IMG/VR virus record: IMGVR_UViG_3300036851_000232
Span: 1 to 61,446 of that record
Strand: one strand, 5' to 3'
Length of the DNA: 61,446 bases
DNA from: a virus
Lineage: Duplodnaviria > Caudoviricetes
The position numbers and the translations under genes were made by a program. This document shows positions 1 to 33,323 of this stretch, in pieces. The notes beneath the pieces were generated by a model. The model had not been told where the DNA came from and ran no database searches. It was given only the letters and a program-made list of their open reading frames with translations. The number at the start of each line of letters is the position of its first letter. Within the stretch, counting starts at the first letter, position 1.

Positions 1-152
1 GCGGGGTCACCGACGAGGGCGGTCCTGGCTTTGCTGGAGGGGTGGGTGCGGCCGGCGGAGGGGGCGGTGATGACGTAGCCGCCTTCGCCGCGGGTTTCGA
101 TAAGGGTGTAGATCTTCTGGTCGGGGTTGGTCGCGAGTTCAGCTGTGGTGGC
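1..152. repeat. Terminal direct repeat / assembly overlap (copy 1), indicates circular or circularly permuted genome
   Basis: 1-152 matches 61295-61446 except T26 vs A61320; an ORF reads through the join. Confidence 0.95.
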
Positions 153-554
153 GGGCCGGCGGGCGAGTTTCAGGTTGCCGCGGGTGGTGCCGTTGACGCG
201 GTATAGCCAGTGCAGCCCGCCGGAGGGGGTGAGCTCGAGGTAGCCGTCGTTGAGCCGTTTCCACAGGTCGTTGAGATCGTTGTCGGTGATGGCGGCTGTG
301 AGCCGGTCGAGGAGTTCGGTGACGGCGCGGCCTTCGAGCTCGAACATTTCCAGGTTGCCGGACACTTTGCCGCAGACGAGGCCGATGCCGTCGTAGGCGC
401 CGTTGCTGGTCCAGGCGGCGATTTGGTCGCGGCGGGGCGGGGCGGTCATGTATTGCTTCCAGAACGCGGCTGGGGCCTTGCTGCCGTCTGGGCGTGCGGG
501 TACGACGCAGCAGCCGCTGTCGTGGAAGGCGAGCGCAGCGTCGTGCAGGGTCAC
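1..554 (-). CDS. Bifunctional DNA primase/polymerase-helicase, N-terminal Prim-Pol part (continues across the join into 61294..58885; about 987 aa total)
   Basis: My translation from GTG at 554: MTLHDAALAFHDSGCCVVPARPDGSKAP...GIGLVCGKVSGNLEMFELEG...TPSGGLHWLYRV...IETRGEGGYVITAPS, typical Prim-Pol motifs; 554+2410 nt = 988 codons in frame. Confidence 0.9.
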   Translation of the reverse strand, partial: MTLHDAALAFHDSGCCVVPARPDGSKAPAAFWKQYMTAPPRRDQIAAWTSNGAYDGIGLVCGKVSGNLEMFELEGRAVTELLDRLTAAITDNDLNDLWKRLNDGYLELTPSGGLHWLYRVNGTTRGNLKLARRPATTAELATNPDQKIYTLIETRGEGGYVITAPSAGRTHPSSKARTALVGDP

Positions 555-14535: not shown

Positions 14536-14772
14536 TCAGCTCTCCCACACCCAGTAGCCGGGCCACCGGACCTCACCGAGATCAACACCGTTGACTTCTG
14601 ACTGCTGCTGGAGCTGAAGAGCTACGACCATGCGCAAGATCGACGTCGCTCGATCATCGGAGGCAAAGAAATCAGCGATGGCCAATTCGGTGCCCTCGTG
14701 GTTGATCCATGTGTGCTCCAACAGCGCACCCACGAGACGCCGGTACTGCTCGACTAGCTCAGTCGTGGTCAT
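14536..14772 (-). CDS. Hypothetical protein
   Basis: ORF track; coupled to ParB-DUF4326 gene. Confidence 0.6.
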   Translation of the reverse strand: MTTTELVEQYRRLVGALLEHTWINHEGTELAIADFFASDDRATSILRMVVALQLQQQSEVNGVDLGEVRWPGYWVWES

Positions 14773-15758
14773 TGATCAGCCCTCGCCTTCAGCACGTCGG
14801 CGTGGCAGGGCTCAGGGGCGCACCAGCAACCGAGTGCCTTGCCGCGAAGGGTGTCGAGCTTGGCTGCGAGGCTTGGCTTGTGTGGCAGGTAGTGGACCTC
14901 GTAGTTGCGGATGACCGTGTCGCGGTCGCCGTCCTTGCCCATCTCGAACGGGTTGCCCCAGACGGTCTGCCGATCAACGCGCACGTAGAGCCCGGCGGAG
15001 TCGGCCCAGGCGATGAGTCCGTTGTGGTCACCGCGGAGGGTGACCACGATGGTTTCACCATTGCGGAGTCTTTTTAGCAGGTGGCGTTCTTCAGGGGACC
15101 AGTCGGCGAAGATGCGTTCCTCGCGGATCTCTTCGAGGATCTGCTCACAGTCAACGGGAAGGTCTTGGGCGGCTTGGCGCAGCAACTCCTCGGTTAGGTG
15201 CGCAGTTATATTCGCCTGAATATCGTTGCGCACCTGAGCTTCGCTGATGTCCAGGTGGCCGCCGATCTTGCGCGTCGACCAGCCTGCTCGCTGCAACAGC
15301 ATGGCCTTCACCTGGCGCAGTAGTTTCCGTCGTTCTGTCAGTGGAGAGAGCCATCTGCTGACGGTGGGCTGGCTGATCCCGAGCCACTTGGCGAGATCAC
15401 GCTGCGACGTGTTGACGTTCCGCCGGGCTTCTTCAAGTGCGATCTGCTCGAGGTCGCGCGTGCTCATGCGGTCGCCGTGCCGAGTCGAGAGGGATGCGGC
15501 GTACACCTTCACCGACGGCGCGGTGGCAGGCACGTCGTGCTCTTCGATAGCGATGTGGTCGAGACCTGCCTGCTGGTGTGCTCGCAGGCGGTGCATTCCG
15601 TCTAGGAGCCGATTTGTGCCGCGCTCTATGACGATGGCTGGGAACTGTGCGCCAGCTGCGAGTGCGTCGGCGTATCTGTCGACCGTGGCTGATGACCACG
15701 AGGACCGCGGATAGATGTCCAGGTCGATAACGACCTCTGTGAGACGCATATCGGTCAC
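14769..15758 (-). CDS. ParB/Srx-like N-terminal domain + HTH(s) + DUF4326-like C-terminal domain
   Basis: LLDGMHRLRA (ParB-N); SQRDLAKWLGISQPTVSRWL and STRKIGGHLDISEAQV (HTHs); VDRQTVWGNPF...LRGKALGCWCAPEPCHADVL (DUF4326 signature). GTG at 15758 with AGGAGG RBS. Confidence 0.8.
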   Translation of the reverse strand: MTDMRLTEVVIDLDIYPRSSWSSATVDRYADALAAGAQFPAIVIERGTNRLLDGMHRLRAHQQAGLDHIAIEEHDVPATAPSVKVYAASLSTRHGDRMSTRDLEQIALEEARRNVNTSQRDLAKWLGISQPTVSRWLSPLTERRKLLRQVKAMLLQRAGWSTRKIGGHLDISEAQVRNDIQANITAHLTEELLRQAAQDLPVDCEQILEEIREERIFADWSPEERHLLKRLRNGETIVVTLRGDHNGLIAWADSAGLYVRVDRQTVWGNPFEMGKDGDRDTVIRNYEVHYLPHKPSLAAKLDTLRGKALGCWCAPEPCHADVLKARADQ

Positions 15759-15892
15759 GACGCGGCCTCCTGACCGGTGGCATCGAACATCCGCCGCAAC
15801 GTGCGCGCCTGCTCTTCGGTGATCTCGGGCGAGTCCGCGAGCTGCGCGTCGAGCCACTGCTCCTCGCGGGCGCGCGCCTCAGCGGCGGTCAC
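15755..15892 (-). CDS. Small hypothetical protein (45 aa)
   Basis: Own translation MTAAEARAREEQWLDAQLADSPEITEEQARTLRRMF...; coupled. Confidence 0.55.
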   Translation of the reverse strand: MTAAEARAREEQWLDAQLADSPEITEEQARTLRRMFDATGQEAAS

Positions 15893-15986: not shown

Positions 15987-16259
15987 TCATGCCGCCGGTT
16001 CCTCGTCCGTCTCGCCGTCGTCGAGGACGGTGAAGAGCTTTTCGAAGCCGAGATGGGGGAAGGCGCGGAGGACGGCGGCGATGAACTCGCCTCCGGGCCG
16101 CTGGTCCCGGTTGCGGATCCGGCCGACGGTGGTCTTGGCCACGCTGAGCTGGCGGGCGACTTCGGCGTCGGTGGTCCAGCCCCGGGCGAGGCACGCGACC
16201 TCGAAGACGTCGATGTTCAATATGACGCCTGCGGCCACTGTTAGTCCTCTCATGGTCAC
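15987..16259 (-). CDS. Cro-like XRE HTH protein, first gene of leftward lytic operon
   Basis: TDAEVARQLSVAKTTVGRIRNRDQRPG HTH; divergent from repressor. Confidence 0.8.
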   Translation of the reverse strand: MTMRGLTVAAGVILNIDVFEVACLARGWTTDAEVARQLSVAKTTVGRIRNRDQRPGGEFIAAVLRAFPHLGFEKLFTVLDDGETDEEPAA

Positions 16260-16273
16260 CTACCGTGTGGAAT

Positions 16274-16396
16274 GTTGCGCATGGGCTACAAAGTAGCCGT
16301 TGCGTGCACGCGACGCAACCACCTGGGGAAAGAAATGTCAGTGCCTCTAACAGGACGAGGTCGCGTGTGTGCGTTACCGTGTTGCGTGTACGCGCC
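16274..16396. promoter_or_regulatory. Immunity switch operators (about 16-bp palindrome GTTGCGTGCACGCAAC-like, 3-4 copies)
   Basis: GTTGCGCATGGGCTAC 16274, GTTGCGTGCACGCGAC 16299, GTCGCGTGTGTGCGTT 16360, GTTGCGTGTACGCGCC 16381, between divergent HTH genes. Confidence 0.65.
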
Positions 16397-16410
16397 GAAG
16401 GGGAGACGCG

Positions 16411-16785
16411 ATGCCTGCACGCCCGCCAAGTCCGTGGGCCGGATACGTCCGCGCCCTTCTTGACACCCGGTTCGCCGGCAACGGGGCTGCCCTCGCGGCC
16501 GAGGTCGGCGTTGGTCGGTCAGCGGTCAGCCGGTGGCTGCGCGGGGCCATCCCCCGCATCGAGCATGTCCGAGCCGTTGCGCAACTCACCGGTGATCCGC
16601 TGATCGTGCTGCTGCGTTTGGCCTACGGGATTGAGTCCGAATCGGCGATGACGCCGGAAGAAGCGATCCAGGCCGATGAGCATCTCGACCAGGCCGCGAA
16701 AGAGGTTCTGCTCGCGTTGTACCGCCAGCTCCGCGAAAAATACGGCTGGGATCCGTCGAACCGGGCACACCGCACAGCGGTCTGA
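16411..16785 (+). CDS. CI-like immunity repressor (XRE HTH)
   Basis: GAALAAEVGVGRSAVSRWLRGAIP HTH; GAAGGGGAG RBS before ATG 16411; divergent from Cro-like gene. Confidence 0.82.
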   Translation: MPARPPSPWAGYVRALLDTRFAGNGAALAAEVGVGRSAVSRWLRGAIPRIEHVRAVAQLTGDPLIVLLRLAYGIESESAMTPEEAIQADEHLDQAAKEVLLALYRQLREKYGWDPSNRAHRTAV

Positions 16786-16786
16786 G

Positions 16787-16957
16787 TCAGGCGCGGGCCT
16801 CTTCTTCCTCTTCGACCAGCCGTAGCCGTTTCAGCCCGGGGCAGCGGTTCTTGGTGTCGTATGCGCCCGCCTGGTATCCGAGTTCGTACACGGCAGCCCA
16901 TGTCTCGGCCCAGCGCCGCGTCGCGACACAGATCAGCAGGCGGCGCAGCATCGGCAT
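16787..16957 (-). CDS. Small hypothetical protein
   Basis: Start MPMLRR after GAGGGG; convergent with repressor. Confidence 0.45.
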   Translation of the reverse strand: MPMLRRLLICVATRRWAETWAAVYELGYQAGAYDTKNRCPGLKRLRLVEEEEEARA

Positions 16958-17059
16958 CGGCTTCCCTGACCCCTCGTGAGAACGGAATCCCCCACCCGGA
17001 GAGCTAACGACGCCCGGCCATAGCGCGTTACGGCCCGACACCGGTTCTTTACCTTCGGT

Positions 17060-17316: not shown

Positions 17317-18075
17317 CTAGAGGTCGGAGCCGTAGAGCAGCCGGACCCGGGTCGCGTCGGAGACGGCACGCAGCACCTCGAGCCGCTGGCCGTCGTCGGT
17401 CGAGGTGATCCGGGTGGTGTCAAGGACGGCGGCACCGGGCGGCAAGTCAAGCGCGGCAGCTTCGCTAGGGGTGACGGGGCGGGCCCTGACCTGTTCGGTG
17501 TACCGGCCGGGGCGGTACCCGGCGTCGGTGAGCGCTTGGTAGATCCCGCCGGGCAGGAACACCGGCTCGGCGAGCGGTGTGCCGCCCGCGACGCTGGCCG
17601 GTATCCAGGAGGTGGTGAGCTGCGCGGGTTGCCCGTCGGCGTGCATGGTGCGGTACCGGCACACCGCAGGGCCGTCAAGGCGCAGTGCCTTGGTCACGTC
17701 GGCCGGTACCTCGTCAAGCGGTACCACGTCCACGTCATCGAGCCGTACCTGCGGTTCCATGCCGGCGCGGGTGACGGCCACCGACCAGGGCCCGCCCGCG
17801 ATGGCGCCGTTCGCGGCGGCTGCGTGCCGGGAGGTGCGGAGTTCGATGGGCCGGACGTCACGGACGACCGTGGACTGCCGTTCGTTGCCGCCGCGATGCC
17901 GGGCGATGAGGCCTTCCGCTTCGAGTTCCCGGTAGGCGCGGCGGACGGTTTCGCGGGCGGCGCCGTGCTTGCGGGCGAGCTCGGCTTCGCTGGGCATCTG
18001 CCCGCCGGGACCGAGTTGGGCGGCGAGGGCGCGCAGGTTGGCGGCGATCTTGGCCCACGTGGGGGTGTCGGGCAC
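17317..18075 (-). CDS. GntR/HutC-family regulator with UTRA domain (KorSA/TraR-like transfer repressor)
   Basis: MPSEAELARKHGAARETVRRAYRELEAEGLI wHTH; UTRA-type C-terminus (RPVTPSEAAALDLPPGAAVL..TR); GTG 18075 with GGAGG; divergent from the transfer genes. Confidence 0.88.
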   Translation of the reverse strand: MPDTPTWAKIAANLRALAAQLGPGGQMPSEAELARKHGAARETVRRAYRELEAEGLIARHRGGNERQSTVVRDVRPIELRTSRHAAAANGAIAGGPWSVAVTRAGMEPQVRLDDVDVVPLDEVPADVTKALRLDGPAVCRYRTMHADGQPAQLTTSWIPASVAGGTPLAEPVFLPGGIYQALTDAGYRPGRYTEQVRARPVTPSEAAALDLPPGAAVLDTTRITSTDDGQRLEVLRAVSDATRVRLLYGSDL

Positions 18076-18114
18076 CGGCTGCGCACCTCCGTTCACCCGT
18101 TCGTCGTGGGGTGC

Positions 18115-18164
18115 TTGACGATCCCATGCTGACGGGGGACCATCCCATTGTCTAGACCGGTACC
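18115..18164 (+). promoter_or_regulatory. Putative transfer-operon promoter and GntR operator
   Basis: TTGACG(18115)-N17-GACCAT(18138); GTCTAGAC palindrome 18150-18157 followed by CGGTACCG. Confidence 0.5.
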
Positions 18165-18182
18165 GAATGAGGGAGGCCCGCC

Positions 18183-18974
18183 GTGTCTCACGCCGGTACC
18201 GGTACCGCCGAACCCCAGGGCCGGTCGGCGCGCGGGTCAACACCCGATGCGCGGGCGGTGCCCGGTACGCCGGCCGGTCCTGGCCGGTACCGGGACCACG
18301 ACTGGTGGAAGATCACCCTTCGGGCCGTGGCCGGTACCGCCGCCGTCGTGGCCTCGTTCGTGTTCCTGGTTGACCTGGCGCGGGCGACGGGCTGGCCGGG
18401 ATGGACCGCGTACCTGCTGCCACTCTCGCTGGACGCGCTCGCGGCGGCGGCGTGGCGGATCTACGTGACCTGCGGCCGGGACCGGTTCGCCCTGTGGTGC
18501 GGTATCGGTACGACCGGGGCGACGCTGGCGGGGAACGCGGTGTCGCACCTGATCGGTACCGGGCACGTCGCGCCGGGCTGGTTGCTGGTCGCGACGGTGG
18601 GTGCGGTGCCGGCGATGAGCTTGGCGCTGGTGATCCACCTGACCGCGCCACCGAGGCTGCTGGACGCAGGTGCTGCTAGTCCCAGTCCGGCTGGGAGTTC
18701 GCTGGTAGTTGAGCGCGACGGTGCCGGCGGTCGGGGCGGGCCGCGGCCGGGGGGGATCGCCGCAGCGGGTCGGACCGCCGGCACCACAAGCCAGCGTAGC
18801 GACGACCAGCTGCTCGCCGAGATCCGCGCGCTCGGCCTCGAGCAGGTCGGGGCGGACAAGCTGACCGAGCCGCTCGGCATCAACAAGACCAGGGCGGTCA
18901 GGTTGCGGAAGCTGCTCGCCGCCGAGCTCGTACCGGCCAGCGGGAACGGACACACAGATGGGAGCACGCCATGA
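18183..18974 (+). CDS. DUF2637/Spd-like membrane protein (4 TM + C-terminal HTH-like region)
   Basis: ASFVFLVDLARATGWPGWTAYLLPLSLD...TLAGNAVSH...VGAVPAMSLALVIHL pattern of actinomycete plasmid spread proteins; GAGGGAGG RBS. Confidence 0.75.
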   Translation: MSHAGTGTAEPQGRSARGSTPDARAVPGTPAGPGRYRDHDWWKITLRAVAGTAAVVASFVFLVDLARATGWPGWTAYLLPLSLDALAAAAWRIYVTCGRDRFALWCGIGTTGATLAGNAVSHLIGTGHVAPGWLLVATVGAVPAMSLALVIHLTAPPRLLDAGAASPSPAGSSLVVERDGAGGRGGPRPGGIAAAGRTAGTTSQRSDDQLLAEIRALGLEQVGADKLTEPLGINKTRAVRLRKLLAAELVPASGNGHTDGSTP

Positions 18975-19174
18975 CCCCCGCGCTTTTCGTGATCATGATG
19001 ATGTTGGGTGCCGCGATCTTCGTGTCGATACGCGCCAAGCAGACGAAGATCTGGGAACTCGTCATGCTCGGCACATTCGGCGCGCTACTCGGCCAAGTAA
19101 CGATCGGCTCCGCGTACCTGTCCGGGCTGAGCAGCGTGTCCACGTCCCTGTTCGCCGCGATCGGCCTCGGCTGA
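18971..19174 (+). CDS. Small two-TM membrane protein (Spd-like accessory)
   Basis: Hydrophobic 67 aa ORF coupled between Spd-like gene and translocase. Confidence 0.7.
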   Translation: MTPALFVIMMMLGAAIFVSIRAKQTKIWELVMLGTFGALLGQVTIGSAYLSGLSSVSTSLFAAIGLG

Positions 19175-19180
19175 CACCCG

Positions 19181-20743
19181 GTGACGGCCGAACTGCAGGA
19201 ACGCGCCGGTACCGTCGCCGTCATGCCACTGCCCGTTGATCCGCCGGGTGAGGACACCGAGCCGGTACCGGCGGGCAGGCTGGGGCTGGTTCGGCGCGGC
19301 TGCGGTTGGTACGCGGGTTGTGTGCGCAACTACTTCCGACGCGGTTGCTCCGAGGCGTACCAGGCGTGGCGGTCCCGGGTGGACCTGTGGGCCGAGGGTA
19401 GCCATCGACTCAGGTCCGACTGCGAGATGTACACGAACGACCGGGTGGAGTGGCGGGAGAGGGAGAAGCAGCGCCGCAAGCAGCTGGAGAGGGAGGACGA
19501 GGCAGCTGTCCGGAAGGCGCTCGAGGAGAAGCAGCCGGTACCGAAGCCGTCGAAGTTCAAGCCGCGGGACCCGTGTCGCGAGCTGCATCGGCAGAGGATC
19601 ATGCGCAAGGCCGTGTCGCCGGTTGCCGGCGTCATCGGCCCTGCCCTAGCGGCGGTCGCCCTGGTATTCGGCGGCCCGGCCCTGATCCAGCAGGCACTGG
19701 TCGCCGCGCACGGTACCGCCCTCGCGACCGGATTCGCGGTTGCTGCTGCGATGGTTCTCGCGGTGGCCGCAGTGACGGTGTTGTCGGTGTTCGGGCAGGT
19801 CCGCAGCGAGCCAGCGGTACCAGTCGATCCCGGCGGGGAGGAGGACGCGACACCGTGGTCCCGGATCACCATCGGGAGGTTCCTCGACGACGGTTCGCCG
19901 ATCGAGATCCCGTTCGGCGACCATGTGCTGATCGCCGGTGCCACCGACGCGGGGAAGTCCAACCTTGTCAACGTTGTCATCTCGAAGATCGCCCCGTTCC
20001 CGGAGGTCGAGCTGTACGGCATCGACTTGAAGGGCGGCGTGGAACTCGGCCCGTGGGAGAACGTCCTCGTGGAGCTGGCCGAGGACGACAAGGCTGCGGT
20101 CGCGTTGCTGCGGCGGCTCAGTGAGGAGATGGACCGCCGGTACCGCACGCTCCGCGCTGCCGGGCGGAAGAACTGGCGGCTGCAGGACGGCCGATTCATG
20201 AAGGTGATCGTGGATGAGTTGGCCGAGTTGCCGAAAGCGGGCGTGGATCTCCTTACCCGGTTGGCGCTGCTCGGCCGCGCCGCCGGGATCTCTTTGGTGT
20301 GCGCCACACAACAGCCCGAGGTGGCGGTGATTCCGCAGCAGGCAAGGGGTCAGCTCCGTACCGTGCTCGGTCTGCGGGTGGAGCGGGCTGAGCAGGCCCG
20401 GCAGGTGTTCGGGGAGCGGGCGACCCGCGAGGGATGGGATCCGGCGTCGCTGGACCCGACGAAGCGGGGATCGCTGCTGGTCCGGTCGAAGTGGTGCACG
20501 GAGCCGCGGCCGGGCCGGTCGACGCGGATCACGGACGGCGAGGTCCGCGCACGTGCGAAGGAGTACGCGAGGACGCCACGCGAATATGTGGCCGAGGATC
20601 GGCCAGCCGGCGAGGGGGAAGAGCGGCGGTGCTTGTACTGCGGGAAGCCGCCCACGGATCCGCGCGCGAAGTACTGCTCGCCCGCGCATCGGAAAGAGCA
20701 TTGGCGACGCTTGCGACGCTTCGGCCCAGATGGGGGTTCCTGA
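19181..20743 (+). CDS. traB: TraB-like FtsK/SpoIIIE DNA translocase
   Basis: Two TM helices, HVLIAGATDAGKS Walker A, IDLKGGVEL, VIVDELAEL Walker B, GRAAGISLVCATQQP; gene context GntR-spd-tra. Confidence 0.85.
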   Translation: MTAELQERAGTVAVMPLPVDPPGEDTEPVPAGRLGLVRRGCGWYAGCVRNYFRRGCSEAYQAWRSRVDLWAEGSHRLRSDCEMYTNDRVEWREREKQRRKQLEREDEAAVRKALEEKQPVPKPSKFKPRDPCRELHRQRIMRKAVSPVAGVIGPALAAVALVFGGPALIQQALVAAHGTALATGFAVAAAMVLAVAAVTVLSVFGQVRSEPAVPVDPGGEEDATPWSRITIGRFLDDGSPIEIPFGDHVLIAGATDAGKSNLVNVVISKIAPFPEVELYGIDLKGGVELGPWENVLVELAEDDKAAVALLRRLSEEMDRRYRTLRAAGRKNWRLQDGRFMKVIVDELAELPKAGVDLLTRLALLGRAAGISLVCATQQPEVAVIPQQARGQLRTVLGLRVERAEQARQVFGERATREGWDPASLDPTKRGSLLVRSKWCTEPRPGRSTRITDGEVRARAKEYARTPREYVAEDRPAGEGEERRCLYCGKPPTDPRAKYCSPAHRKEHWRRLRRFGPDGGS

Positions 20744-20860
20744 GCGTGGGCAGCTTCTCTGATGGAGATGCGTCGCATGCGTCGCACCGCAGGTCAGGGG
20801 GCTTGCGATGCGTCGCATCATGCGTCGCTTCGCTGGAAGCGTCGCATCATGCGTCGCATC
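20704..20860. repeat. clt-like repeat cluster at traB 3' end (ATGCGTCGC x5, AAGCGTCGC x1, two inverted copies)
   Basis: Direct copies at 20768, 20777, 20808, 20820, 20837 (variant), 20849; GCGACGCT at 20704 and 20713. Confidence 0.85.
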
Positions 20861-20864
20861 TGTC

Positions 20865-21305
20865 GTGATTCCGTCGTGGCTGGTCTCAGCAGATGGCATC
20901 CTCGACCGTGTCCTGTCGCCGCTGGATCCGCTGGTAGCCGACCGGTGGCACTGGTTGCCGGTGCTGGCCGTGGCGTGGTGGACGGTGCGCTGGTTCTCGT
21001 ATCGGCCGGGTCTGTGGCTGGCGATGCTCCGCTGCCGGTTGCTGCGCCGGGGTGGTGAGCGGACCGCCCTGTACCGGTGGTTCGACGGGTCGGGGAGGTT
21101 GCGGTATGTGGGGATCTCGAATGATGTGCGGCGGCGCACCGGTCAGCATGCGGCGGGGAAGTGGTGGTGGTTCGAGGTGCGGTCCTGCACCGTGGAGTGG
21201 TTCGACACTCGGGGTGCGGCGTTGGCGGCGGAGCGCGCTGCGATCCGGGCGGAGCGGCCCCGGCATAACGTGGTCCACAACGGGCGACGGAGGGCGGCGG
21301 CGTGA
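20865..21305 (+). CDS. GIY-YIG nuclease with hydrophobic N-terminal segment
   Basis: TALYRWFD..GRLRYVGIS...RRRTGQH...KWWW...AAERAAIRAERPRHN; start uncertain. Confidence 0.78.
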   Translation: MIPSWLVSADGILDRVLSPLDPLVADRWHWLPVLAVAWWTVRWFSYRPGLWLAMLRCRLLRRGGERTALYRWFDGSGRLRYVGISNDVRRRTGQHAAGKWWWFEVRSCTVEWFDTRGAALAAERAAIRAERPRHNVVHNGRRRAAA

Positions 21306-22386: not shown

Positions 22387-22643
22387 CAGTCCTCCACCCG
22401 TTCGGGCCAGTGCCACGTGCCGGGACGGCGGTCCTCGTCGTGCTCGCAGTCGTTGAAAAACAGCCCGGTCGGGTTGAGGACGACCAGTGAGCACAGGTCG
22501 CCGGGGACGTCCTCCGTGTTGACGTACGGCCCGCCTATGTCGCAGACCTCAGCGATCACGGCCGCGCGGCACGTGCTGGTGTACTCCCCACCAGGGGTGC
22601 CGTAGCTGACGTAGTGGACGATTCTTCCGATGCTTGGCCTCAT
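22386..22643 (-). CDS. Conserved phage hypothetical protein (PSIGRIVHY...W.WP type)
   Basis: Recognisable MxPSIGRIVHY...RAAVI...TWHWPER pattern. Confidence 0.75.
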   Translation of the reverse strand: MRPSIGRIVHYVSYGTPGGEYTSTCRAAVIAEVCDIGGPYVNTEDVPGDLCSLVVLNPTGLFFNDCEHDEDRRPGTWHWPERVED

Positions 22644-23485
22644 GGCTGCGGCTCCGCAGCGGACTCGGCGGCCGGTGTCTCGTTCTTCACCGTCACGGTG
22701 ACGTCGATCGCCGCGTCGGCGAGGAGCTGCCGCACCTGATCCTGGGTGAGGTCGTTCGCGTCGTCCTCCGCGATCGCCTTGACCGCCACGACGGAGTTCG
22801 CGAACGTCATGTCGAGCAGGTGCTTGATCGCCGGTGGGGGCCGCTCACCCCAGATCTCCCCGGCCGACGGGCTCCAGAAGCGCACTGGGCGTCCCCAGAA
22901 ATGAGCGTCAAACGCGGCCCAGTCGGCGGCGTCCCACTTCTCCGGTCCGGTAGTCGACACGGATACCTCCGGTTGCTTGGTCAGGGTGCCGCCCCGGACG
23001 AGCGCGGTCACGGCCGCGCCGGGGCATTCGGTGGGTGCGGCTCGCACGTCGTTGTGCGTCTTCACGGCCGTCGCGCCGGGATAGCGCCTGAGGAGCCGGG
23101 TGGTGCGCCAGTCCCGGAACGCCTGCACCATCGCATCGGTGGGTTTGTCGCCCGTGCCGAGGATCCACAGGCAGGCGGTGTAATCGGCGTTCGACTGGGT
23201 GCCACCGTTCGCCGCGGTGCGGCAGTCGAGGCCACGGAGCTCCCACACGCAGCCGTGCCAGTCGATGCCGACGCCGTACGCGATGTCGGACCAGCCCTTT
23301 GAGTCCATGTGGTACGCCTGCCAGCCGCGGAGCTGCGACGCGACCTGCGCGTCGGACAGCCCGACCAGCTTCGCATCGGAGCCGGGCCAGTGGCAGGCGA
23401 CGCCGAGCGGCCGCCCGGTCGGGAACGAGGTGCAGCCGCGGCGGGCGCGTAGTCCGGCGTCGGCCCTACTCCGGTACGTCGTCAC
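22640..23485 (-). CDS. Endolysin, N-acetylmuramoyl-L-alanine amidase (Amidase_2/PGRP-like)
   Basis: HW, QAYHMDSKGWSDIAY, ELRG, HNDV..TECPG zinc-amidase motifs; start GTG 23485 inferred. Confidence 0.85.
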   Translation of the reverse strand: MTTYRSRADAGLRARRGCTSFPTGRPLGVACHWPGSDAKLVGLSDAQVASQLRGWQAYHMDSKGWSDIAYGVGIDWHGCVWELRGLDCRTAANGGTQSNADYTACLWILGTGDKPTDAMVQAFRDWRTTRLLRRYPGATAVKTHNDVRAAPTECPGAAVTALVRGGTLTKQPEVSVSTTGPEKWDAADWAAFDAHFWGRPVRFWSPSAGEIWGERPPPAIKHLLDMTFANSVVAVKAIAEDDANDLTQDQVRQLLADAAIDVTVTVKNETPAAESAAEPQP

Positions 23486-23579
23486 CGGGCTCGTCTTCGT
23501 GGTCGCCCGCGAGTTCGTCGGCAGAGACGGTGCCGGACTCGACCTCGTCGGGGGTCGGACTGGTCGGTTGTTCGGACAT
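23466..23579 (-). CDS. Small acidic peptide (37 aa)
   Basis: GAGGAGG RBS; MSEQPTSPTPDEVESG... Confidence 0.5.
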   Translation of the reverse strand: MSEQPTSPTPDEVESGTVSADELAGDHEDEPGDDVPE

Positions 23580-23595
23580 GGGGCGTTCCTCCTCG

Positions 23596-24309
23596 TCAGT
23601 CTTGGACGCACACCCACCACTGCTCCCCACCGGGAGCCGGGTCCGGGTCGCGTTGCTCGCCGTGATAACCCTCTGGACACGGCGGGCCTGCCGGGCCTGG
23701 ATCTCCGGGATCGCCCTTGCCGCCTTTCTCGCCGCGACATTCGCCATGAGCGTCGCAATAGGTAGCGACGGCTGCGGCGATCTGTTCGTCAGACGGCGGG
23801 GGTCCCTGCGATCCAGGTGTCCCATCGACACCGTCGCGGCCGTCGACACCGGCCCTGCCGTCCTGACCGGTCGATCCTCGGCATTCGCCGCGAGCGTTGC
23901 AGAACGTGGCGACCGCGGCGGCGACCTGCGCGGGCGACGGCCCATCCCCGGCGGGGCCGCGGCAACCGCTCCGCGGCGCGCAATAGGCGGCCACAGCGGC
24001 GGCCACCTGCGCGGCGCTCGGGGGTGCCCCTTCGGGGCCGCGGATGCCGCGCAGTCCAGGTTCACCGGGAGGTCCGTCCGCCCCGACGACGATCTCCGGG
24101 TTGCGGGCAATCTGCTCGGCGGGCGGGGTGACCGGCTCGTCGCCGCGCGTCTCCGTCGCCCGCTGCTCCTGTGTGAGCGCCGTGTACAGGGCGGCGATCT
24201 GCTCGTCCTGGCCGCGTTGCTGCCACGCCACCCACAAGGTGAGCACGGCCATGGCGATCACGACGACGCCGATGACCCGCAGCCCCGACAGCCTCCGATG
24301 CGCGATCAT
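23596..24309 (-). CDS. Membrane-anchored collagen-like (G-X-Y) protein of lysis region
   Basis: N-terminal TM; GXY runs alternating with three 'QVAAAVAxYC..R.EC.G' repeats. Confidence 0.75.
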   Translation of the reverse strand: MIAHRRLSGLRVIGVVVIAMAVLTLWVAWQQRGQDEQIAALYTALTQEQRATETRGDEPVTPPAEQIARNPEIVVGADGPPGEPGLRGIRGPEGAPPSAAQVAAAVAAYCAPRSGCRGPAGDGPSPAQVAAAVATFCNARGECRGSTGQDGRAGVDGRDGVDGTPGSQGPPPSDEQIAAAVATYCDAHGECRGEKGGKGDPGDPGPAGPPCPEGYHGEQRDPDPAPGGEQWWVCVQD

Positions 24310-25867: not shown

Positions 25868-26773
25868 TTACACCGTCAAATCGATGGACTGGATGATCCG
25901 GTACGAGTCCGGGTCGGCGGTGGCGGGCCGGTCCTGCATGTTCGACCACATCTCGCCGGTGCCGCGGCGCAGCGCCCATTCACCACGCCGGAACGTGTCC
26001 GCGCCCACGTCTTCGACGAACTCGACGATCGCGACCTTCGAGGTGGAGGTCCAGTAGCCGGCGTACTGCGGGAACCCGAGCCCGGCGAGCGTGTCCTCGT
26101 GCTGCTGCGCGAACTCGGCGACGGTGAAGCTGGCCGGCCCGATCCAGTCGGTGTCGGCGAAGCTGGTGTCCACGACGATGTCTTCGTCGACGTCCATCAG
26201 CATCTCCCCGTCGCCGGGGTCGAACTGGATACCGATGTGGAAGTCGATGGCGCCGAACGCCGTCCCCGCCCCGGTCAGGTCGATGTCGGGGGTGCTGCCG
26301 TGCCGGTTGACGCCGAGGAACGCGCGAACTGAGTGGCTGCCGTCGTAGTGCCACTCCACCCGGTGCCAATCCCGCAGCGGTATCGGAATGGCCGACGTGG
26401 CGCGCAGCGTGGACGGGTCGTAGACGCGCAGCAGACCGGTCGAGGTGATCCGCAGCGTTTTCACGTTCGTGCCAGCGTCCTGGGTGCGCATGAACTCCAT
26501 CTCGGAGGTCGGGTAGCGGGAGAACCGCAGGTAGGCGCGGCGGCGGAACGAGTCGGTCAGATCCGGGTGGCTGTAGGTGGCCTTGGACGAGTGCTGCGCC
26601 CCGCCGGTGGCGGCTGTCCGGAACCTGGCCGCGGCGCCGCGGAGCCCCCCGGCGATGGCGGTGGCGGTGGCACCGGCGCCGGCAATGGCGTACGACGTGT
26701 ACCTGGTGTTGGACGTGTCGAGGACGGTGCCGGTAGCCAGACCGGTGAATGTCTCGTTGAGGATCTCGGTCAT
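25868..26773 (-). CDS. Minor tail / receptor-binding protein (beta-sandwich, lectin-like)
   Basis: Start MTEILNETF; WHRVEWH motif; position after tail genes. Confidence 0.6.
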   Translation of the reverse strand: MTEILNETFTGLATGTVLDTSNTRYTSYAIAGAGATATAIAGGLRGAAARFRTAATGGAQHSSKATYSHPDLTDSFRRRAYLRFSRYPTSEMEFMRTQDAGTNVKTLRITSTGLLRVYDPSTLRATSAIPIPLRDWHRVEWHYDGSHSVRAFLGVNRHGSTPDIDLTGAGTAFGAIDFHIGIQFDPGDGEMLMDVDEDIVVDTSFADTDWIGPASFTVAEFAQQHEDTLAGLGFPQYAGYWTSTSKVAIVEFVEDVGADTFRRGEWALRRGTGEMWSNMQDRPATADPDSYRIIQSIDLTV

Positions 26774-27192
26774 TGCGCAGCGTAGATCAGGACCATGCAC
26801 GACTCGTCGACGAACGTGAACGTCACCGCCACCCTGGAGTGCATGACCGGGGCGGCCGGTGCGCTCTTACCGTGGATCTGCGTCCACACGTTCGACGGGT
26901 AGGTGCCGGTCGCGGTCTCCACGGTCTGCCACACGCCGTCCGACAGCACCTGGTAGCGGTAGACGAATCCGACCGACCGGTTCAGCGGATCCTTGGTGAG
27001 CGCCTTCGTCTGCACCGGGTTGGCGGCACCGGAGGAGTTGAGCCATTTCACGTCGCCGCGGTGGCTGATCCCGCCCGCAGCGCAGCTTTCCCGCACGTAC
27101 GAGTAGAAGCCGCCGGACGTCGCGGCCATAGCTGGCACAGCGAGCAGCGTGAGCACTCCGACGAGACCCGCAACGATTATGCGCATGATCAT
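26770..27192 (-). CDS. Secreted protein with signal peptide
   Basis: MRIIVAGLVGVLTLLAVPAMA-A; GGGAGGA RBS. Confidence 0.65.
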   Translation of the reverse strand: MIMRIIVAGLVGVLTLLAVPAMAATSGGFYSYVRESCAAGGISHRGDVKWLNSSGAANPVQTKALTKDPLNRSVGFVYRYQVLSDGVWQTVETATGTYPSNVWTQIHGKSAPAAPVMHSRVAVTFTFVDESCMVLIYAAQ

Positions 27193-27497
27193 CCTCCCTG
27201 ACGGGTGAACCCGTCGGCCTGCCAGTGATCACGGACCCGCTCGGTCATGTCGCGGTTCAGCAGCTGCTCCACGGTGACCACGTGACCGGGCACAACGACG
27301 CGGCCGTCAGGGCTGGTCTGCGATGCGGCTGCCTGCGCGGCCGTAAACGACGTGTAGGTGACGCTGATCTCACCGCGCGTCCATATCTCGTAGGTGCCAC
27401 CGCCGCGGTCCACGACAGTAGGCCAGCGTGTCCACGTCGGCTCAACGACGACGCTTTTCACGTATTCGGCTTCGACGACCTGCCCCACGGCGACCAT
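27189..27497 (-). CDS. Hypothetical protein
   Basis: ORF track. Confidence 0.5.
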   Translation of the reverse strand: MVAVGQVVEAEYVKSVVVEPTWTRWPTVVDRGGGTYEIWTRGEISVTYTSFTAAQAAASQTSPDGRVVVPGHVVTVEQLLNRDMTERVRDHWQADGFTRQGG

Positions 27498-27524
27498 CAG
27501 ATACCGTGTCCGCTCACTTGCGCC

Positions 27525-28073
27525 TCACGACGACTTGGCGATCCAGAACGCCTGAATATAGTTCTCGTATTGGTTGATTCCGGTGGTGGATAGGGATCCC
27601 CCGGAGATCTGCTGCACGAACACTTCGATGTAGTCGCCCACAATCAGGTCGACGTCGAACGACGACCCGAAACTGAACGTGTTCGGGGAGGCCATGGCCG
27701 TGAAGTCGAACAGCTGCGTCCCGCCGGTCGCCGAGCCGGCGGAGTTCTTCCGAATGTGTGTGATCCGGGAGCCGGTGCCGTTCGCAGTCCATGCGATCCC
27801 CACATCGACGTGGAACAGCCCGGCGGCGTTGCAGGTGATCCGGGACGGGTTCGTGCCGGAGTTGTGCATGTTGTCGGAGTCGAGGACCTCGGCGTTCCAC
27901 GACATGAGCGTGGACACGTTGTTCGCCACCGACAGTACGGTGGAGTCGTAGGCCCACACCCGGGGTGGGGACAGCAGGAAGTTCAGGGCGTCCCGGAGCT
28001 CGAGGTTCAGGGTGGTCGCGTTGACCTTGCTGGTGCCGTTGACCCAGGTCTGCGGGGCCGGGACGATCGCCAC
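27525..28073 (-). CDS. Minor tail protein (C1q/jelly-roll-like)
   Basis: VNATTLN..LRD N-terminus, SRITCNAAGLF, VGDYIEVFVQQ. Confidence 0.75.
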   Translation of the reverse strand: MAIVPAPQTWVNGTSKVNATTLNLELRDALNFLLSPPRVWAYDSTVLSVANNVSTLMSWNAEVLDSDNMHNSGTNPSRITCNAAGLFHVDVGIAWTANGTGSRITHIRKNSAGSATGGTQLFDFTAMASPNTFSFGSSFDVDLIVGDYIEVFVQQISGGSLSTTGINQYENYIQAFWIAKSS

Positions 28074-28081
28074 GCGTCACC

Positions 28082-33000: not shown

Positions 33001-33323
33001 AACGCGGTATCGGCACCGGCCCGGATCGCGGCCTCGCGGAGCTTGTTCATCTCGGCGGCGGACGCGCCGGTGACGGCCTTCACCCCGGACATGGCCTTGT
33101 CGAAATCGGCGAACTTCTTCACCGCGATCGCGGCCATCGCCCCGGCGGCGACCCCGATCCCGGCGACGGTGACGCCGATCTCCCGGTAGGCCTGCTTGTG
33201 CTTTCCCCCGTGGGTGATCGCCTGGTTGGTGAACTGCGCGGTTGCGGCCTGCGCCTGCCGGACCCCGGCGAGGTATCCCGACACGTCGGCGCGGAGACGG
33301 GCGGTTACGGTGCGATCAGCCAA
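30036..33323 (-). CDS. Tape measure protein (TP901-like core) with C-terminal lytic transglycosylase
   Basis: TTG 33323 after GAGGAGG; FDKAMSGV..GSDAGTSLK core; KESGFRNTAQNPTSTAYGMFQFL...YIAQRYG. Confidence 0.92.
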   Translation of the reverse strand: MADRTVTARLRADVSGYLAGVRQAQAATAQFTNQAITHGGKHKQAYREIGVTVAGIGVAAGAMAAIAVKKFADFDKAMSGVKAVTGASAAEMNKLREAAIRAGADTAFSASEAATAQGELAKAGISTADILGGALAGSLDLAAAGQLQLGNAAEISAQAMNIFKLRGSDVGHIADVLAAGANKSAADVGQLGDALRQGGLVAAQTGLSLEDTVGTLSAFADRALIGSDAGTSLKTMLQRLNPQSDEAADLMQRLGITAYDAQGNFIGLEAFAGRLQKGLSGLSTEQRNAALATIFGSDAVRAANVLYELGERGVREYTQAVDDEGAAARMAATQLDNLRGDLEELSGSIETALIQTGSAGNTVLRDMVQAATAAVNVYNDLPKPVQTATLAVLGVAGAAGTVGGALLILLPKIHATKVALDEMGISASRAAGALGTLAKIGGTITAIYAVGEGVGFLKKNLYGLDEDVADLSGSFARWADTGKLAGSAAKLVGEDFKNVGLATDYLDRFGSGIGKFLNDFNPFTDALGEGKKTFEDLDATMAALLSSGNAEAARELFVRTEQAVRAKGKSVQWLNGQLPQYTGALAGANAAQKEAAGSAGAMSEAEKKVVEQADKAAKELSDLKDKIDAVVDAQLGGEASMDRFQEQLHGLREQVKGARDEHDKHARSLKGNSEAALENRDRMRGLIQTAADAIKWDIEHGATKDKVTQKTKFFKDELSRTARQLGLNKDDTARYIRVLDDVPNQIQTDVKANTAKAKEDLRKYRDYANITLDQIRDEVVVSTIKFSSNAQRLAYDLRHQGLAAGGPVRGAGGPTQDNIPIWASAGEYVVNAQSTSRHRPLLEAINTGRYAAGGPVVSMRAAESGLGAVGAGADAVERATRSFSERAISAYVKRLNQAITPAIGSAFAPGAPANVSGNAALVRSMAASMYGWSGGQWDALYRLVMKESGFRNTAQNPTSTAYGMFQFLNSTWASVGGHKTSDPRAQTVYGLRYIAQRYGTPSAALSFHLGHNWYEHGTDYVPETGPAMLHRGERIIPAWQNTQMMQVRGGGQGGGAVVHIHFPNFYGDRAAAGAVVNDLLAAAQARGVRLVTANG

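What the first reader, a model, noticed from the sequence alone, without database searches (positions are those of the whole stretch)
15987..17041. Lysogeny switch present but no integrase and no ParA anywhere in a closed genome
Seen: a divergent CI/Cro-like pair with operators is present. I found no ORF with tyrosine- or serine-recombinase motifs, no ParA-type Walker ATPase and no protelomerase, although the contig closes into a circle. Inference: the prophage is extrachromosomal, replicated by the Prim-Pol-helicase (Prim-Pol replicases are also used by some AICEs). It may be kept in the population by TraB/Spd spreading rather than by ParAB partition.
Basis: inference. Interest (0 to 1): 0.7.

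Follow-up and report, generated by a model that had tools for sequence, protein, structure and literature searches.

The report
Integrase-less actinophage with plasmid-transfer cassette
A complete soil actinophage genome has a lysogeny-type switch and a Streptomyces-plasmid-style DNA-pump cassette but no integrase or ParA, while its nearest relative carries an integrase, so how or whether it persists in its host is open.

Summary
The window is a whole IMG/VR virus record. Its ends overlap by 152 nt (151/152 identical) inside one Prim-Pol/helicase gene, so it closes to about 61.3 kb. A divergent Cro-like (15987-16259, -) and CI-like (16411-16785, +) HTH pair is present.

Six-frame HMM searches found no tyrosine or serine recombinase, rve transposase, protelomerase, Gp3-like RDF or ParA. 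A positive control (FtsK) was found. All 39 predicted ORFs of 150 aa or more were scanned and none is recombinase-like.

- The nearest complete relative (terminase 93% identical) has a large serine integrase and an RDF. The integrase sits in the slot between the CI-like and GntR genes, where this phage has two small ORFs. That relative also carries the same GntR / DUF2637 / TraB-like cassette, so the cassette does not replace integration.
- The palindrome CGGTACCG occurs 13 times (1.4 expected), 12 of them inside the cassette. The relative has 4 of 4 copies of CCGGTACCG inside its own traB-like gene.

Episomal carriage is the likeliest reading (about 0.4) but has no direct support. A non-lysogenising derivative is nearly as likely.

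The parts
1..152 (.). Left copy of the terminal overlap. It equals 61295-61446 at 151/152. The unit genome is about 61294 bp.
   Evidence: blastn of the first 3 kb against the last 3 kb
61295..61446 (.). Right copy of the terminal overlap.
153..554 (-). N-terminal part of the Prim-Pol/helicase gene. It continues in frame through the overlap into 61446->58885.
   Evidence: Pfam Prim-Pol E 4.1e-14. Frame arithmetic and colinear alignment to the relative's 1002-aa protein.
58885..61446 (-). C-terminal part of the Prim-Pol/helicase replicase (about 987 aa when joined).
   Evidence: PHROG 19930 'DNA polymerase/primase' E 1.9e-84
14769..15857 (-). ParB_N-like + HTH + DUF4326 protein. It is the second gene of the early operon after the Cro-like gene. 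The likely start is the ATG at residue 37.
   Evidence: DUF4326 E 4.8e-23 and HTH_23 E 6.4e-8. ParB_N six-frame hit at E 0.0046, 13 bits, below cut-off. PHROG 1033 'ParB-like partition protein' E 4.6e-6. The sequence reads LLDGMHRLRA.
15987..16259 (-). Cro-like HTH protein (90 aa), first gene of the leftward early operon.
   Evidence: PHROG 3642 E 2.7e-15. tblastn hits HTH proteins in 22 phage records, 13 Mycobacterium and 7 Arthrobacter.
16260..16410 (.). Divergent control region with GTTGCG-type repeats: 16274, the 16299-16319 palindrome, and 16381.
16411..16785 (+). CI-like HTH_3 repressor candidate (124 aa).
   Evidence: Pfam HTH_3 28.3 bits, over cut-off, for the longer ORF 16369-16785. 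PHROG 3949 'transcriptional repressor' E 2.9e-8. No tblastn match in 50,697 phage records.
16787..17302 (-). The 'empty slot': two small ORFs (84 aa, weak coding signal; 80 aa, GC3 0.88) with no family. They sit between the CI-like and GntR genes, where relative G001 carries a serine integrase, a 178-aa ORF and a GNAT gene.
   Evidence: No Pfam or PHROG hit. G001 annotation. GC3.
17317..18075 (-). GntR/UTRA (HutC-type) repressor. The longest ORF runs to 18243. GTG 18075 with GGAGG upstream is the likelier start.
   Evidence: UTRA E 1.7e-17, GntR E 4.4e-11. Start codons. 33% identical to the G001 GntR and 31% to the G002 GntR.
18150..18157 (.). GTCTAGAC. This is the only GT-N-TA-N-AC site in the genome, just upstream of the DUF2637 ribosome-binding site. 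It is the presumed GntR operator.
   Evidence: The same octamer lies in the divergent GntR spacer of G002 at 4054. That GT-N-TA-N-AC is the HutC-family consensus is recalled.
18183..18974 (+). DUF2637 membrane protein with a C-terminal HTH-like tail (SpdB-like by position).
   Evidence: DUF2637 E 8.6e-5, 22.9 bits against cut-off 22.8. Hydrophobic segments. The C-terminal 69 aa are 45% identical to the G001 counterpart, E 4e-8.
18971..19174 (+). 67-aa membrane protein, conserved in G001 (39% identity).
19181..20743 (+). TraB-like protein. It has a charged helical N-terminus, TM segments at 143-209, an FtsK/SpoIIIE motor (Walker A GATDAGKS at 253) and a C-terminal CxxC...CxxxH tail.
   Evidence: Pfam FtsK_SpoIIIE E 2.6e-19.. 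AlphaFold model: motor blocks at pLDDT 56-92, mostly 70 or more; Foldseek 2ius_D E 5.6e-16, rmsd 2.6 over 273 columns.
17651..20145 (.). Array of 12 copies of the palindrome CGGTACCG, spread over the GntR gene, the spacer, the DUF2637 gene and the 5' two-thirds of the TraB-like gene.
   Evidence: 13 in the genome against 1.43 expected; 0 of 100 shuffles reach 13. The five copies inside the TraB-like gene fall in all three frames, by my arithmetic on the coordinates. G001 has 4 of 4 CCGGTACCG inside its traB-like gene; G002, which has no TraB, has 6 dispersed copies of CGGTACCG.
20704..20865 (.). Local array of GCGTCGC-core repeats straddling the stop of the TraB-like gene. There are 5 direct ATGCGTCGC copies and 2 inverted copies.
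   Evidence: The octamer is not over-represented genome-wide (8 found, 10.2 expected), and 5 of the 8 lie within 90 bp. No counterpart in G001.
20808..21305 (+). GIY-YIG nuclease-domain protein with a hydrophobic N-terminus. It is the fourth of the five + strand ORFs of the cluster; a 90-aa ORF (21302-21574) with no significant family hit follows.
   Evidence: GIY-YIG E 5.5e-7.. 55% identical over 69 aa to the G001 neighbour of traB.
22640..23758 (-). Endolysin. It lies near the end of the late (virion and lysis) minus-strand operon, which abuts the cassette.
   Evidence: PHROG 1493 E 6.9e-17
25868..53701 (-). Virion module: large terminase 52217-53701, MuF-like 48815-50038, major capsid 44297-45487, tape measure 30036-33389.
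   Evidence: Pfam Terminase_6C/6N, Phage_Mu_F, Phage_capsid_4 E 3.7e-50, PhageMin_Tail E 3.3e-48

Best explanation
SHOWN:
- This is the complete, circularly closing 61.3-kb genome of a tailed phage of a high-GC actinomycete. It belongs to a lineage whose other members integrate.
- It keeps a divergent Cro-like / CI-like switch.
- It has no integrase, RDF, ParA, protelomerase or rve transposase.
- The slot between the CI-like and GntR genes holds two small ORFs. In the nearest complete relative that slot holds a large serine integrase.
- Next to the slot lies a Streptomyces-plasmid-type cassette. It comprises a HutC/GntR repressor with a GTCTAGAC operator, divergent from a DUF2637 membrane/HTH protein, a 67-aa membrane protein and a membrane-anchored FtsK-fold pump. 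Twelve copies of CGGTACCG are strewn over it.

INFERRED:
- When the CI-like repressor wins, the genome stays as an unintegrated circle, copied by its own Prim-Pol/helicase and with no ParA-type partition.
- In a multinucleate, sparsely septate mycelium, loss would be offset by copy number. It would also be offset by the pump, which, once the GntR repressor is relieved, moves phage DNA marked by the palindromes across septa or into neighbouring hyphae.
- The cassette is a lineage accessory, not a replacement for the integrase.
For: - Closure: a 152-nt overlap at 151/152 in frame inside one gene, colinear with the orthologue. Relatives of 61.5 and 62.0 kb close in the same way.
- Absences: eight families gave no hit in six frames, and the FtsK control was found. 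All 39 predicted ORFs of 150 aa or more were scanned with no recombinase-like or ParA-like hit.
- Temperate lineage: G001 has a serine integrase convergent on an HTH_3 repressor, a Cro-like gene and a Gp3-like RDF. G002 has two tyrosine integrases. Terminase relatives at 52-68% identity sit inside long actinomycete contigs.
- Own replicase.
- Cassette.
- Palindrome array: conserved with TraB in G001 although the proteins are only 34% identical, and not clustered in the TraB-less G002.
- Literature. Spreading is discussed as a stability function, and a short palindrome inside an spd gene affects segregational stability (PMC4170104, abstract and section 22). [quoted passage not shown] Integration cassettes are swapped for episomal maintenance in Cluster A mycobacteriophages (PMC7157519, abstract and section 6).
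Against: - No direct sign of lysogeny or of an episome. One soil run holds the sequence, and only as short contigs at depth about 9-13. Its joints have 20-48-nt sides and look like noise.
- G001 has both the cassette and an integrase, so the cassette predicts nothing about integration.
- HTH pairs also occur in lytic phages. The CI-like protein has no tblastn match in the phage collection and no BLAST hit to the G001 repressor at 1e-5.
- The TraB-like C-terminus lacks the winged-helix-like tail seen in G001, P0003 and P0004.
- The host is unknown, so mycelial growth is assumed.
- Known actinobacterial plasmid prophages carry ParAB (PMC7157519; PMC4487206, section 12).
- No other genome with this lysogeny region was found, so there is no evolutionary replication of the integrase-less state.
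Confidence: 0.4

Rival explanations
1. The phage does not lysogenise, or is at most a carrier-state phage. Its lineage lost or never received the integration cassette during mosaic exchange. The HTH pair now only times early transcription. The GntR/TraB-like cassette serves the lytic cycle or competition with other elements, for instance moving replicating phage DNA through the mycelium ahead of lysis, or excluding other elements.
For: - No integrase, RDF or ParA.
- No remnant of an integrase in the 516-bp slot.
- The early region is almost wholly different from G001: only 27 of 95 predicted ORFs have a G001 hit. This points to modular replacement rather than a designed episomal system.
- The CI-like gene has lower third-position GC (about 0.74-0.78) than most genes.
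- FtsK-like ATPases are widespread in viral contigs. 196 of 583 pattern-matching stretches encode relatives, and 225 phage records match.
Against: - The CI-like ORF is intact and sits exactly where G001 has its repressor.
- The cassette lies on the strand opposite the lytic operons and under its own repressor, as lysogeny-expressed genes usually do.
- A repressor-controlled membrane DNA pump is hard to place in a purely lytic cycle.
Confidence: 0.3
2. It integrates after all. It would use a recombinase that profile searches cannot see (one of the ORFs without a family), a host enzyme such as XerCD acting on a dif-like site, or an integrase supplied in trans by a co-resident element.
For: - Many early ORFs have no family. 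Examples are 2166-2684, 2671-3246, 10582-11127, 56517-57122 and 3451-4128.
- The lineage is otherwise integrative, and with different enzymes: serine in G001, tyrosine in G002. This shows frequent swapping of the integration module.
Against: - No unassigned ORF lies in the slot except two of 80-84 aa.
- Eight six-frame searches at E<=10 found nothing.
- No dif-like or attP-like site was looked for, so this rests on absence of evidence only.
Confidence: 0.15
3. Assembly artefact. The soil sample holds several related strains, and the assembler followed a path that skips an integrase cassette present in the real genomes.
For: - The run contains variants. 440 contigs were laid: 151 at 99% or more, 166 at 95-99% and 123 at 90-95% likeness.
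- A Logan contig covering the switch ends at 17102, inside the slot.
- An indel variant lies at 16970.
- The end overlap itself carries a mismatch.
Against: - A Logan contig matches 15833-17102 with 0 differences, and another matches 13453-15821.
- The genome length (61.3 kb) equals that of its two closed relatives.
- The 80-aa slot ORF has strong coding signal (GC3 0.88).
Confidence: 0.07

Closest known systems
IMG/VR relative G001 (record of locus L001; 61,539 bp, exact 127-nt terminal repeat)
   Same: - Terminase 93%, capsid 78% and portal-position protein 73% identical.
- Prim-Pol/helicase about 50% identical over the aligned N-terminal stretches (198 and 229 aa).
- The same GntR/UTRA, DUF2637-with-HTH-tail, 67-aa membrane protein, TraB-like and GIY-YIG cassette.
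- CCGGTACCG copies inside traB.
- A divergent HTH pair in the same position.
   Different: G001 has a 464-aa serine integrase (Resolvase + Recombinase), a GNAT gene and a Gp3-like RDF. Its TraB-like protein ends in a winged-helix-like tail rather than a Cys/His tail. Most early genes differ.
Cluster A mycobacteriophages with parABS (RedRock and others; PMC7157519, abstract and passages read)
   Same: Temperate actinophages in which the integration cassette is missing from its colinear position and the prophage replicates extrachromosomally.
   Different: They carry ParA, ParB and parS arrays in that position. Here no ParA exists, only a ParB_N-like protein in the early operon, and nothing shows episomal replication.
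Streptomyces plasmid-phages pZL12 and pSLE1 (PMC4487206 section 12, PMC3583192 passages; the pZL12 paper itself was not held)
   Same: Circular elements of mycelial actinomycetes that combine virion genes with a plasmid replication locus and a tra locus.
   Different: They are 86-90 kb and encode ParA and ParB; pSLE1 also has two integrases. No sequence similarity to this window was seen in the plasmid collection (megablast with window 14000-24000). The capsid tblastn gave no actinomycete plasmid among the 15 records listed of 52.
TraB / TraR / Spd transfer and spreading system of pSVH1 and pIJ101 (PMC4447253, PMC4170104)
   Same: - A GntR-type repressor divergent from an operon of small membrane proteins ending in a membrane-bound FtsK-like dsDNA pump.
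- Short repeats inside the genes.
- A published idea that spreading also stabilises the element.
   Different: - Similarity is limited to the ATPase core. It is 30.6% identical, E 6e-6, to a 12.65-kb S. venezuelae plasmid record.
- The C-terminal recognition domain differs.
- The DUF2637 protein has no tblastn match in plasmids.
- The repeat is a palindrome, not the published TRS or tre sequences.
- The carrier is a tailed phage.
phiC31 and VWB (cited in PMC4447253 section 13 as actinophages with SpdB2 homologues) and Streptomyces phage Gilgamesh
   Same: Temperate Streptomyces phages that carry Spd-like or FtsK-like genes. The Gilgamesh FtsK-like protein is the best phage match (35.6% identity).
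   Different: Gilgamesh has an annotated tyrosine integrase. That phiC31 and VWB encode integrases is recalled, not checked. None is described with the full GntR + DUF2637 + pump cassette in the sources I read.
AICEs (pSAM2, SLP1, pMEA300; PMC2440964 passages)
   Same: A Kor/GntR regulator, a TraB-type pump, Spd proteins and, in some, a Prim-Pol replication protein.
   Different: AICEs have int/xis and no virion genes. This element has a full virion module and no int/xis.

Membership tests
Integrating temperate phage | Tyrosine or serine integrase gene | tested here: not met
   PF00589, PF00239 and PF07508 gave no hit in six frames at E<=10. The same searches found integrases in relatives G001, G002 and G005.
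Integrating temperate phage | Excisionase or recombination directionality factor | tested here: not met
   PF18897 (Gp3-like) is absent here and present in G001. Only a weak PHROG 'excisionase' hit, E 0.0055, in the DUF2637 protein. Xis-type HTH_17 was not searched in six frames.
CI/Cro-type lysogeny switch | Divergent pair of HTH regulator genes | tested here: met
CI/Cro-type lysogeny switch | Repeated operators in the spacer | tested here: inconclusive
   A 21-bp palindrome plus partial copies. Chance gives 2 or more matches in 11 of 100 shuffles.
CI/Cro-type lysogeny switch | The repressor maintains a prophage | not testable with these tools
   No host, no expression data.
parABS plasmid prophage (P1, Cluster A, pZL12 type) | ParA Walker-type ATPase | tested here: not met
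   PF01656 and PF13614 gave no hit. Actin-like ParM and tubulin-like TubZ were not searched in six frames. No such hit appeared in the ORF scans.
parABS plasmid prophage (P1, Cluster A, pZL12 type) | ParB centromere-binding protein | tested here: inconclusive
   ParB_N at 13 bits against cut-off 26.3. PHROG ParB-like E 4.6e-6. The gene lies in the early lytic operon and has a DGxHR-type motif. The single-sequence model was too poor to use, pLDDT 43.5.
parABS plasmid prophage (P1, Cluster A, pZL12 type) | Array of short repeats serving as centromere | tested here: inconclusive
   The CGGTACCG array exists, but its binding protein is unknown.
N15-type linear plasmid prophage | Protelomerase | tested here: not met
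   PF16684 gave no hit. The control rang in only 3 of 14 genomes, so sensitivity is poorly gauged.
Transposable (Mu-like) phage | DDE transposase of the rve type | tested here: not met
   PF00665 gave no hit. The genome closes on itself rather than ending in host DNA.
Streptomyces TraB transfer/spreading system | Membrane-anchored FtsK/SpoIIIE-fold dsDNA motor | tested here: met
Streptomyces TraB transfer/spreading system | C-terminal winged-helix domain reading 8-bp TRS repeats (clt) | tested here: not met
   The C-terminus is a CxxC...CxxxH tail. G001, P0003 and P0004 have a winged-helix-like tail by alignment. That TraB reads TRS through a wHTH is partly recalled; PMC4447253 section 12 says the C termini recognise clt.
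Streptomyces TraB transfer/spreading system | GntR-type repressor (TraR/Kor) divergent from the operon | tested here: met
Streptomyces TraB transfer/spreading system | Spd membrane proteins (SpdB2 homologue) | tested here: inconclusive
   A DUF2637 protein with 2-3 hydrophobic segments and a 67-aa membrane protein. No tblastn match to plasmids or phages. The equivalence of DUF2637 and SpdB2 was not tested.
Streptomyces TraB transfer/spreading system | Transfers or spreads its own DNA between hyphae | not testable with these tools
   Needs a host and mating or pock assays.
AICE | int/xis module and no virion genes | tested here: not met
   No integrase. A full virion module is present.

The most novel reading that the evidence does not exclude
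A tailed phage that persists as a ParA-less, integrase-less episome in a mycelial actinomycete. A repressor-controlled septal DNA pump plus an array of CGGTACCG palindromes would serve as its segregation and spreading device. In effect this is a 'conjugative prophage' that moves horizontally both as virions and, like a Streptomyces plasmid, as naked double-stranded DNA. In the integrase-bearing relative the same cassette would make an AICE-like phage.
Probability: 0.2. Interest if true: 0.8.

Novelty: new variant of a known kind. Interest (0 to 1): 0.5.

Why it matters
Extrachromosomal prophages of actinomycetes are known only with ParAB, in the sources I read. Streptomyces plasmids are the only elements shown to use the one-protein TraB route.

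A phage lineage carrying a conserved GntR / DUF2637 / TraB-like cassette with its own repeated DNA mark suggests that phage DNA may travel through mycelia without virions. This idea has been raised in print only in passing for SpdB2 homologues.

The pair of relatives, one with a serine integrase and one with none, is a natural comparison. It could be used to ask what the cassette contributes to prophage stability.

The practical limits are that the host is unknown and only one sample holds this genome.

Tried and rejected
- **Close relatives in curated collections.** Megablast of 14000-24000 found nothing in phages or plasmids. Capsid tblastn gave only distant hits, best 45.7%.
- **Other carriers of this lysogeny region.**
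  - Viral contigs with the TraB-like protein: no pattern match.
  - Viral contigs with the GntR: 16 stretches, none a relative.
  - Viral contigs with the ParB-like protein: 3 of 27 stretches are relatives, all distant.
  - Metagenome contigs, searched twice: 159 and 67 stretches, none a relative.
  - The big protein search found only one protein above 40% identity besides the window's own, P0002 at 69% on a 2.2-kb contig.
- **Host junctions and copy number.** One run (X1, soil) holds 0.93 of the sampled words and is probably the source sample. Laying its Logan contigs on 1-20000 gave short pieces, many strain variants, joints with 20-48-nt sides and hundreds of loose ends. No usable phage-host junction and no host to compare depth with.
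- **ParB-like protein structure.** The single-sequence model had pLDDT 43.5 and was not searched.
- **Whole-phage contigs in isolates.** I guessed contig numbers. Only the Kribbella MAG contig (62,477 bp) was right. Its ends share 90%- and 84%-identical stretches, not a clean overlap. I dropped this line.
- **Rfam.** No family at gathering score, not even for the tRNA-Met that ARAGORN calls.
- **Promoter and terminator scan of 15800-18400.** Nothing found.
- **CGGTACCG as the GntR operator.** pSVH1 TraR binds TTTGGTACACAACT (PMC4447253, section 8), which shares GGTAC. I considered this reading less likely, because the motif follows TraB (G0, G001) and not GntR (G002), while GTCTAGAC follows GntR (G0, G002).
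- **Literature.** Four full-text searches turned up no description of a tailed actinophage with this cassette and neither integrase nor ParA. The searches were narrow, supplements are closed, and the pZL12 and pFP4 papers were not held.
Full report
**What the window is.**
- The 61,446-base window is the whole of an IMG/VR virus record.
- Its GC content is 64-74% in 2-kb windows.
- A crude third-position-GC gene call gives 95 ORFs, 80 of them on the minus strand.
- Pfam finds a large terminase, a MuF-like protein, a major capsid protein and a tape measure between 30 and 54 kb.
- PHROGs add an endolysin, a RuvC-like resolvase, an exonuclease and a WhiB-like regulator.
- It is therefore a tailed phage of an actinomycete.
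- Nothing close exists in the phage or plasmid collections.

**Is it closed?**
- IMG/VR classes the record as linear and CheckV estimates 76% completeness.
- However, bases 1-152 repeat at 61295-61446 with one mismatch.
- The repeat lies inside a gene. The Prim-Pol domain ORF that runs off the left end (Pfam E 4.1e-14) continues in frame into the ORF that is open at the right end (PHROG 'DNA polymerase/primase' E 1.9e-84).
- The two halves align colinearly, with the expected 50-residue overlap, to one 1002-aa protein of the nearest relative.
- That relative (G001, 61,539 bp) has an exact 127-nt terminal repeat. A second relative (G002, 62,034 bp) has a 169-nt repeat with one mismatch.
No gene can be hiding at the junction.

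**The switch.**
- The minus-strand ORF 15987-16259 is an HTH protein (PHROG 3642, E 2.7e-15). It heads the long leftward early operon.
- Across a 150-bp spacer lies a plus-strand HTH_3 gene. It scores 28.3 bits, over the Pfam cut-off, and matches PHROG 'transcriptional repressor' at E 2.9e-8. It is best read from the ATG at 16411.
- The spacer holds a 21-bp palindrome and partial copies of its half-site. Statistically this is only suggestive.
- My own gene caller preferred an antisense ORF here. The homology evidence decides for the plus-strand gene.

**The absences.**
- Six-frame profile searches of the window at E<=10 returned nothing for these families:
  - Phage_integrase, Resolvase and CbiA/ParA
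  - Recombinase (33)
  - AAA_31 (34)
  - rve (39)
  - the protelomerase catalytic domain (40)
  - Gp3-like RDF (41)
- The tool does see what is there. It found FtsK_SpoIIIE in the window at E 1.5e-17 and integrases in relatives.
- All 39 predicted ORFs of 150 aa or more went through Pfam or PHROGs with no recombinase, transposase or ParA hit. This covered 50 window ORFs in Pfam and 30 in PHROGs.
The second early gene (14769-15857) has a weak ParB_N-like N-terminus (13 bits; PHROG ParB-like E 4.6e-6), then HTH motifs and DUF4326. Its place in the lytic operon and its DGxHR-type motif make a partition role doubtful.

**What the relatives show.** A terminase scan of IMG/VR gave 18 loci.

G001 is 93% identical in terminase, and 27 of 95 ORFs are shared at E 1e-5. 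In the region between lysis genes and early genes it carries:
- a TraB-like gene and a GntR/UTRA gene;
- a GNAT gene and a 178-aa ORF;
- a 464-aa serine integrase (Resolvase E 5.7e-26, Recombinase E 1.9e-12);
- an HTH_3 repressor convergent on the integrase, and a divergent Cro-like gene;
- further on, a Gp3-like RDF.

G002 (65% terminase identity) has two tyrosine integrases, each beside a GntR/UTRA gene, and a DUF2637 gene, but no FtsK-like gene.

Terminase relatives at 52-68% identity lie inside long contigs of Streptosporangium, Nonomuraea, Nocardioides, Arthrobacter and others.

So the lineage is temperate and integrative. The window is the odd one out. Between its CI-like gene and its GntR gene there are only two small ORFs without any family (16787-17302).

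**The cassette.**
- The repressor is a HutC-type GntR/UTRA protein.
- GTCTAGAC is the only GT-N-TA-N-AC site in the genome. It lies in the spacer just before the ribosome-binding site of the divergent operon. The same octamer lies in the corresponding spacer of G002.
- The divergent operon encodes four proteins:
  - a DUF2637 membrane protein whose C-terminal HTH-like tail is conserved in G001 (45% identity over 69 aa);
  - a 67-aa membrane protein;
  - a 520-aa protein with a charged helical N-terminus, transmembrane segments, an FtsK-fold motor (Foldseek 2ius_D E 5.6e-16) and a Cys/His tail;
  - a GIY-YIG protein.
- This is the layout of the TraR / Spd / TraB regions of pSVH1 and pIJ101 (PMC4447253). 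Sequence similarity is confined to the ATPase core, at 29-37% identity to the Streptomyces plasmid proteins listed and 35.6% to phage Gilgamesh.

**A repeated DNA mark.**
- The palindrome CGGTACCG occurs 13 times against 1.43 expected, and 0 of 100 shuffles reach 13.
- Twelve copies lie between 17651 and 20145. Within the TraB-like gene they fall in all three reading frames, so they are not a repeated peptide.
- G001 has four copies of CCGGTACCG, all inside its own traB-like gene, although the two proteins are only 34% identical. G002, without a pump, has six scattered copies of CGGTACCG.
- I read this as a cis-acting site tied to the pump cassette. It is comparable in kind to clt/TRS repeats, or to the sps palindromes inside spdA that affect segregational stability (PMC4170104).
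- Which protein binds it is unknown. The pump's C-terminal domain differs between the two phages, whereas the DUF2637 tail and the GntR protein are conserved.
- A second, local array of ATGCGTCGC repeats straddles the end of the pump gene in the window only.

**Weighing the readings.**
- The integrase-less state is real in this assembly. The lineage is temperate, the repressor candidate is intact, and the phage has its own replicase.
- Small Streptomyces plasmids do without ParAB (recalled), and spreading has been argued to act as a stability function (PMC4170104, section 22).
- This makes unintegrated carriage the single most likely state (0.4).
- The case is indirect. No read evidence could be obtained. 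No second genome shares this lysogeny region.
- G001 shows that the cassette coexists with integration, so the cassette cannot be taken as the maintenance system.
- Rivals: a phage that has simply lost lysogeny (0.3), a hidden or borrowed recombinase (0.15), or an assembly path that skipped a cassette in a mixed population (0.07).

**Comparison with what is known.**
- Actinophage prophages known to be episomal carry parABS in place of the integration cassette (PMC7157519).
- The Streptomyces plasmid-phages pZL12 and pSLE1 carry ParA and ParB and a tra locus (PMC4487206, PMC3583192).
- SpdB2 homologues on phiC31 and VWB have been noted, with the remark that they might help phage DNA spread (PMC4447253, section 13).
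- The present genome is a new variant: a full Kor/Spd/TraB-like cassette with its own repeat array on a tailed phage, here without any integrase or ParA.

Noticed in passing
window 1-152 and 61295-61446; G002 ends: IMG/VR labels this record and G002 'linear', with CheckV 76% and 82%. Both close through terminal overlaps that carry a single mismatch (152 and 169 nt). I suspect an exact-match repeat test missed them.
   Followed up: yes
G002 (loci L030-L033), 4887-7365: G002 lacks a TraB-like gene. It has its own clustered repeat, CGGACCGGAC, with 7 of 7 genome copies around its DUF2637 gene and a 343-aa ORF. It also has two separate tyrosine-integrase + GntR/UTRA pairs (953-1954 with 3192-3998; 55484-56629 with 57107-57931).
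   Followed up: partly
L120 (Gilgamesh, MN234216.1) and L121 (CP108533.1): At least five Streptomyces plasmid records of 129.7-132.6 kb match the TraB-like query about as well as the 129-kb phage Gilgamesh. The one opened (CP108533.1, circular) shows a similar gene order around the FtsK-like gene. These may be Gilgamesh-like phage-plasmids. Gilgamesh itself has an annotated tyrosine integrase.
   Followed up: partly
window 20704-20865: A dense local array of ATGCGTCGC / GCGACGC repeats across the stop of the TraB-like gene. It covers the predicted start of the GIY-YIG ORF, whose first 19 codons are encoded by the repeats, so its true start may lie further down. This is a candidate clt-like or origin-like site. 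G001 has no counterpart.
   Followed up: partly
window 54357-54431 (-): ARAGORN calls a tRNA-Met (CAT), but Rfam at gathering threshold reports no family anywhere in the window, not even tRNA.
   Followed up: no
window 20808-21305 (+): A GIY-YIG nuclease domain is preceded by hydrophobic segments. It is conserved next to the pump gene in G001. A membrane-associated nuclease in a DNA-translocation operon is unexplained.
   Followed up: no
window 44297-45487 (-): The best tblastn match of the capsid protein in the phage collection is to two Methanoculleus (archaeal) virus records (45.7% identity over 78% of the query), ahead of Arthrobacter phages (33.5%).
   Followed up: no
window 1-20000, run X1: The soil run holds several related variants. 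Contigs laid at 99% or more, 95-99% and 90-95% likeness numbered 151, 166 and 123. Depth was raised at 11.3-13.3 kb. There is an indel variant at 16970 and a contig break at 17102 inside the empty slot.
   Followed up: partly
window 4669-5940, 6193-6798, 13588-14532 (all -): The early region also encodes an N6/N4 DNA methylase, a WhiB-like regulator and an HNH endonuclease.
   Followed up: no
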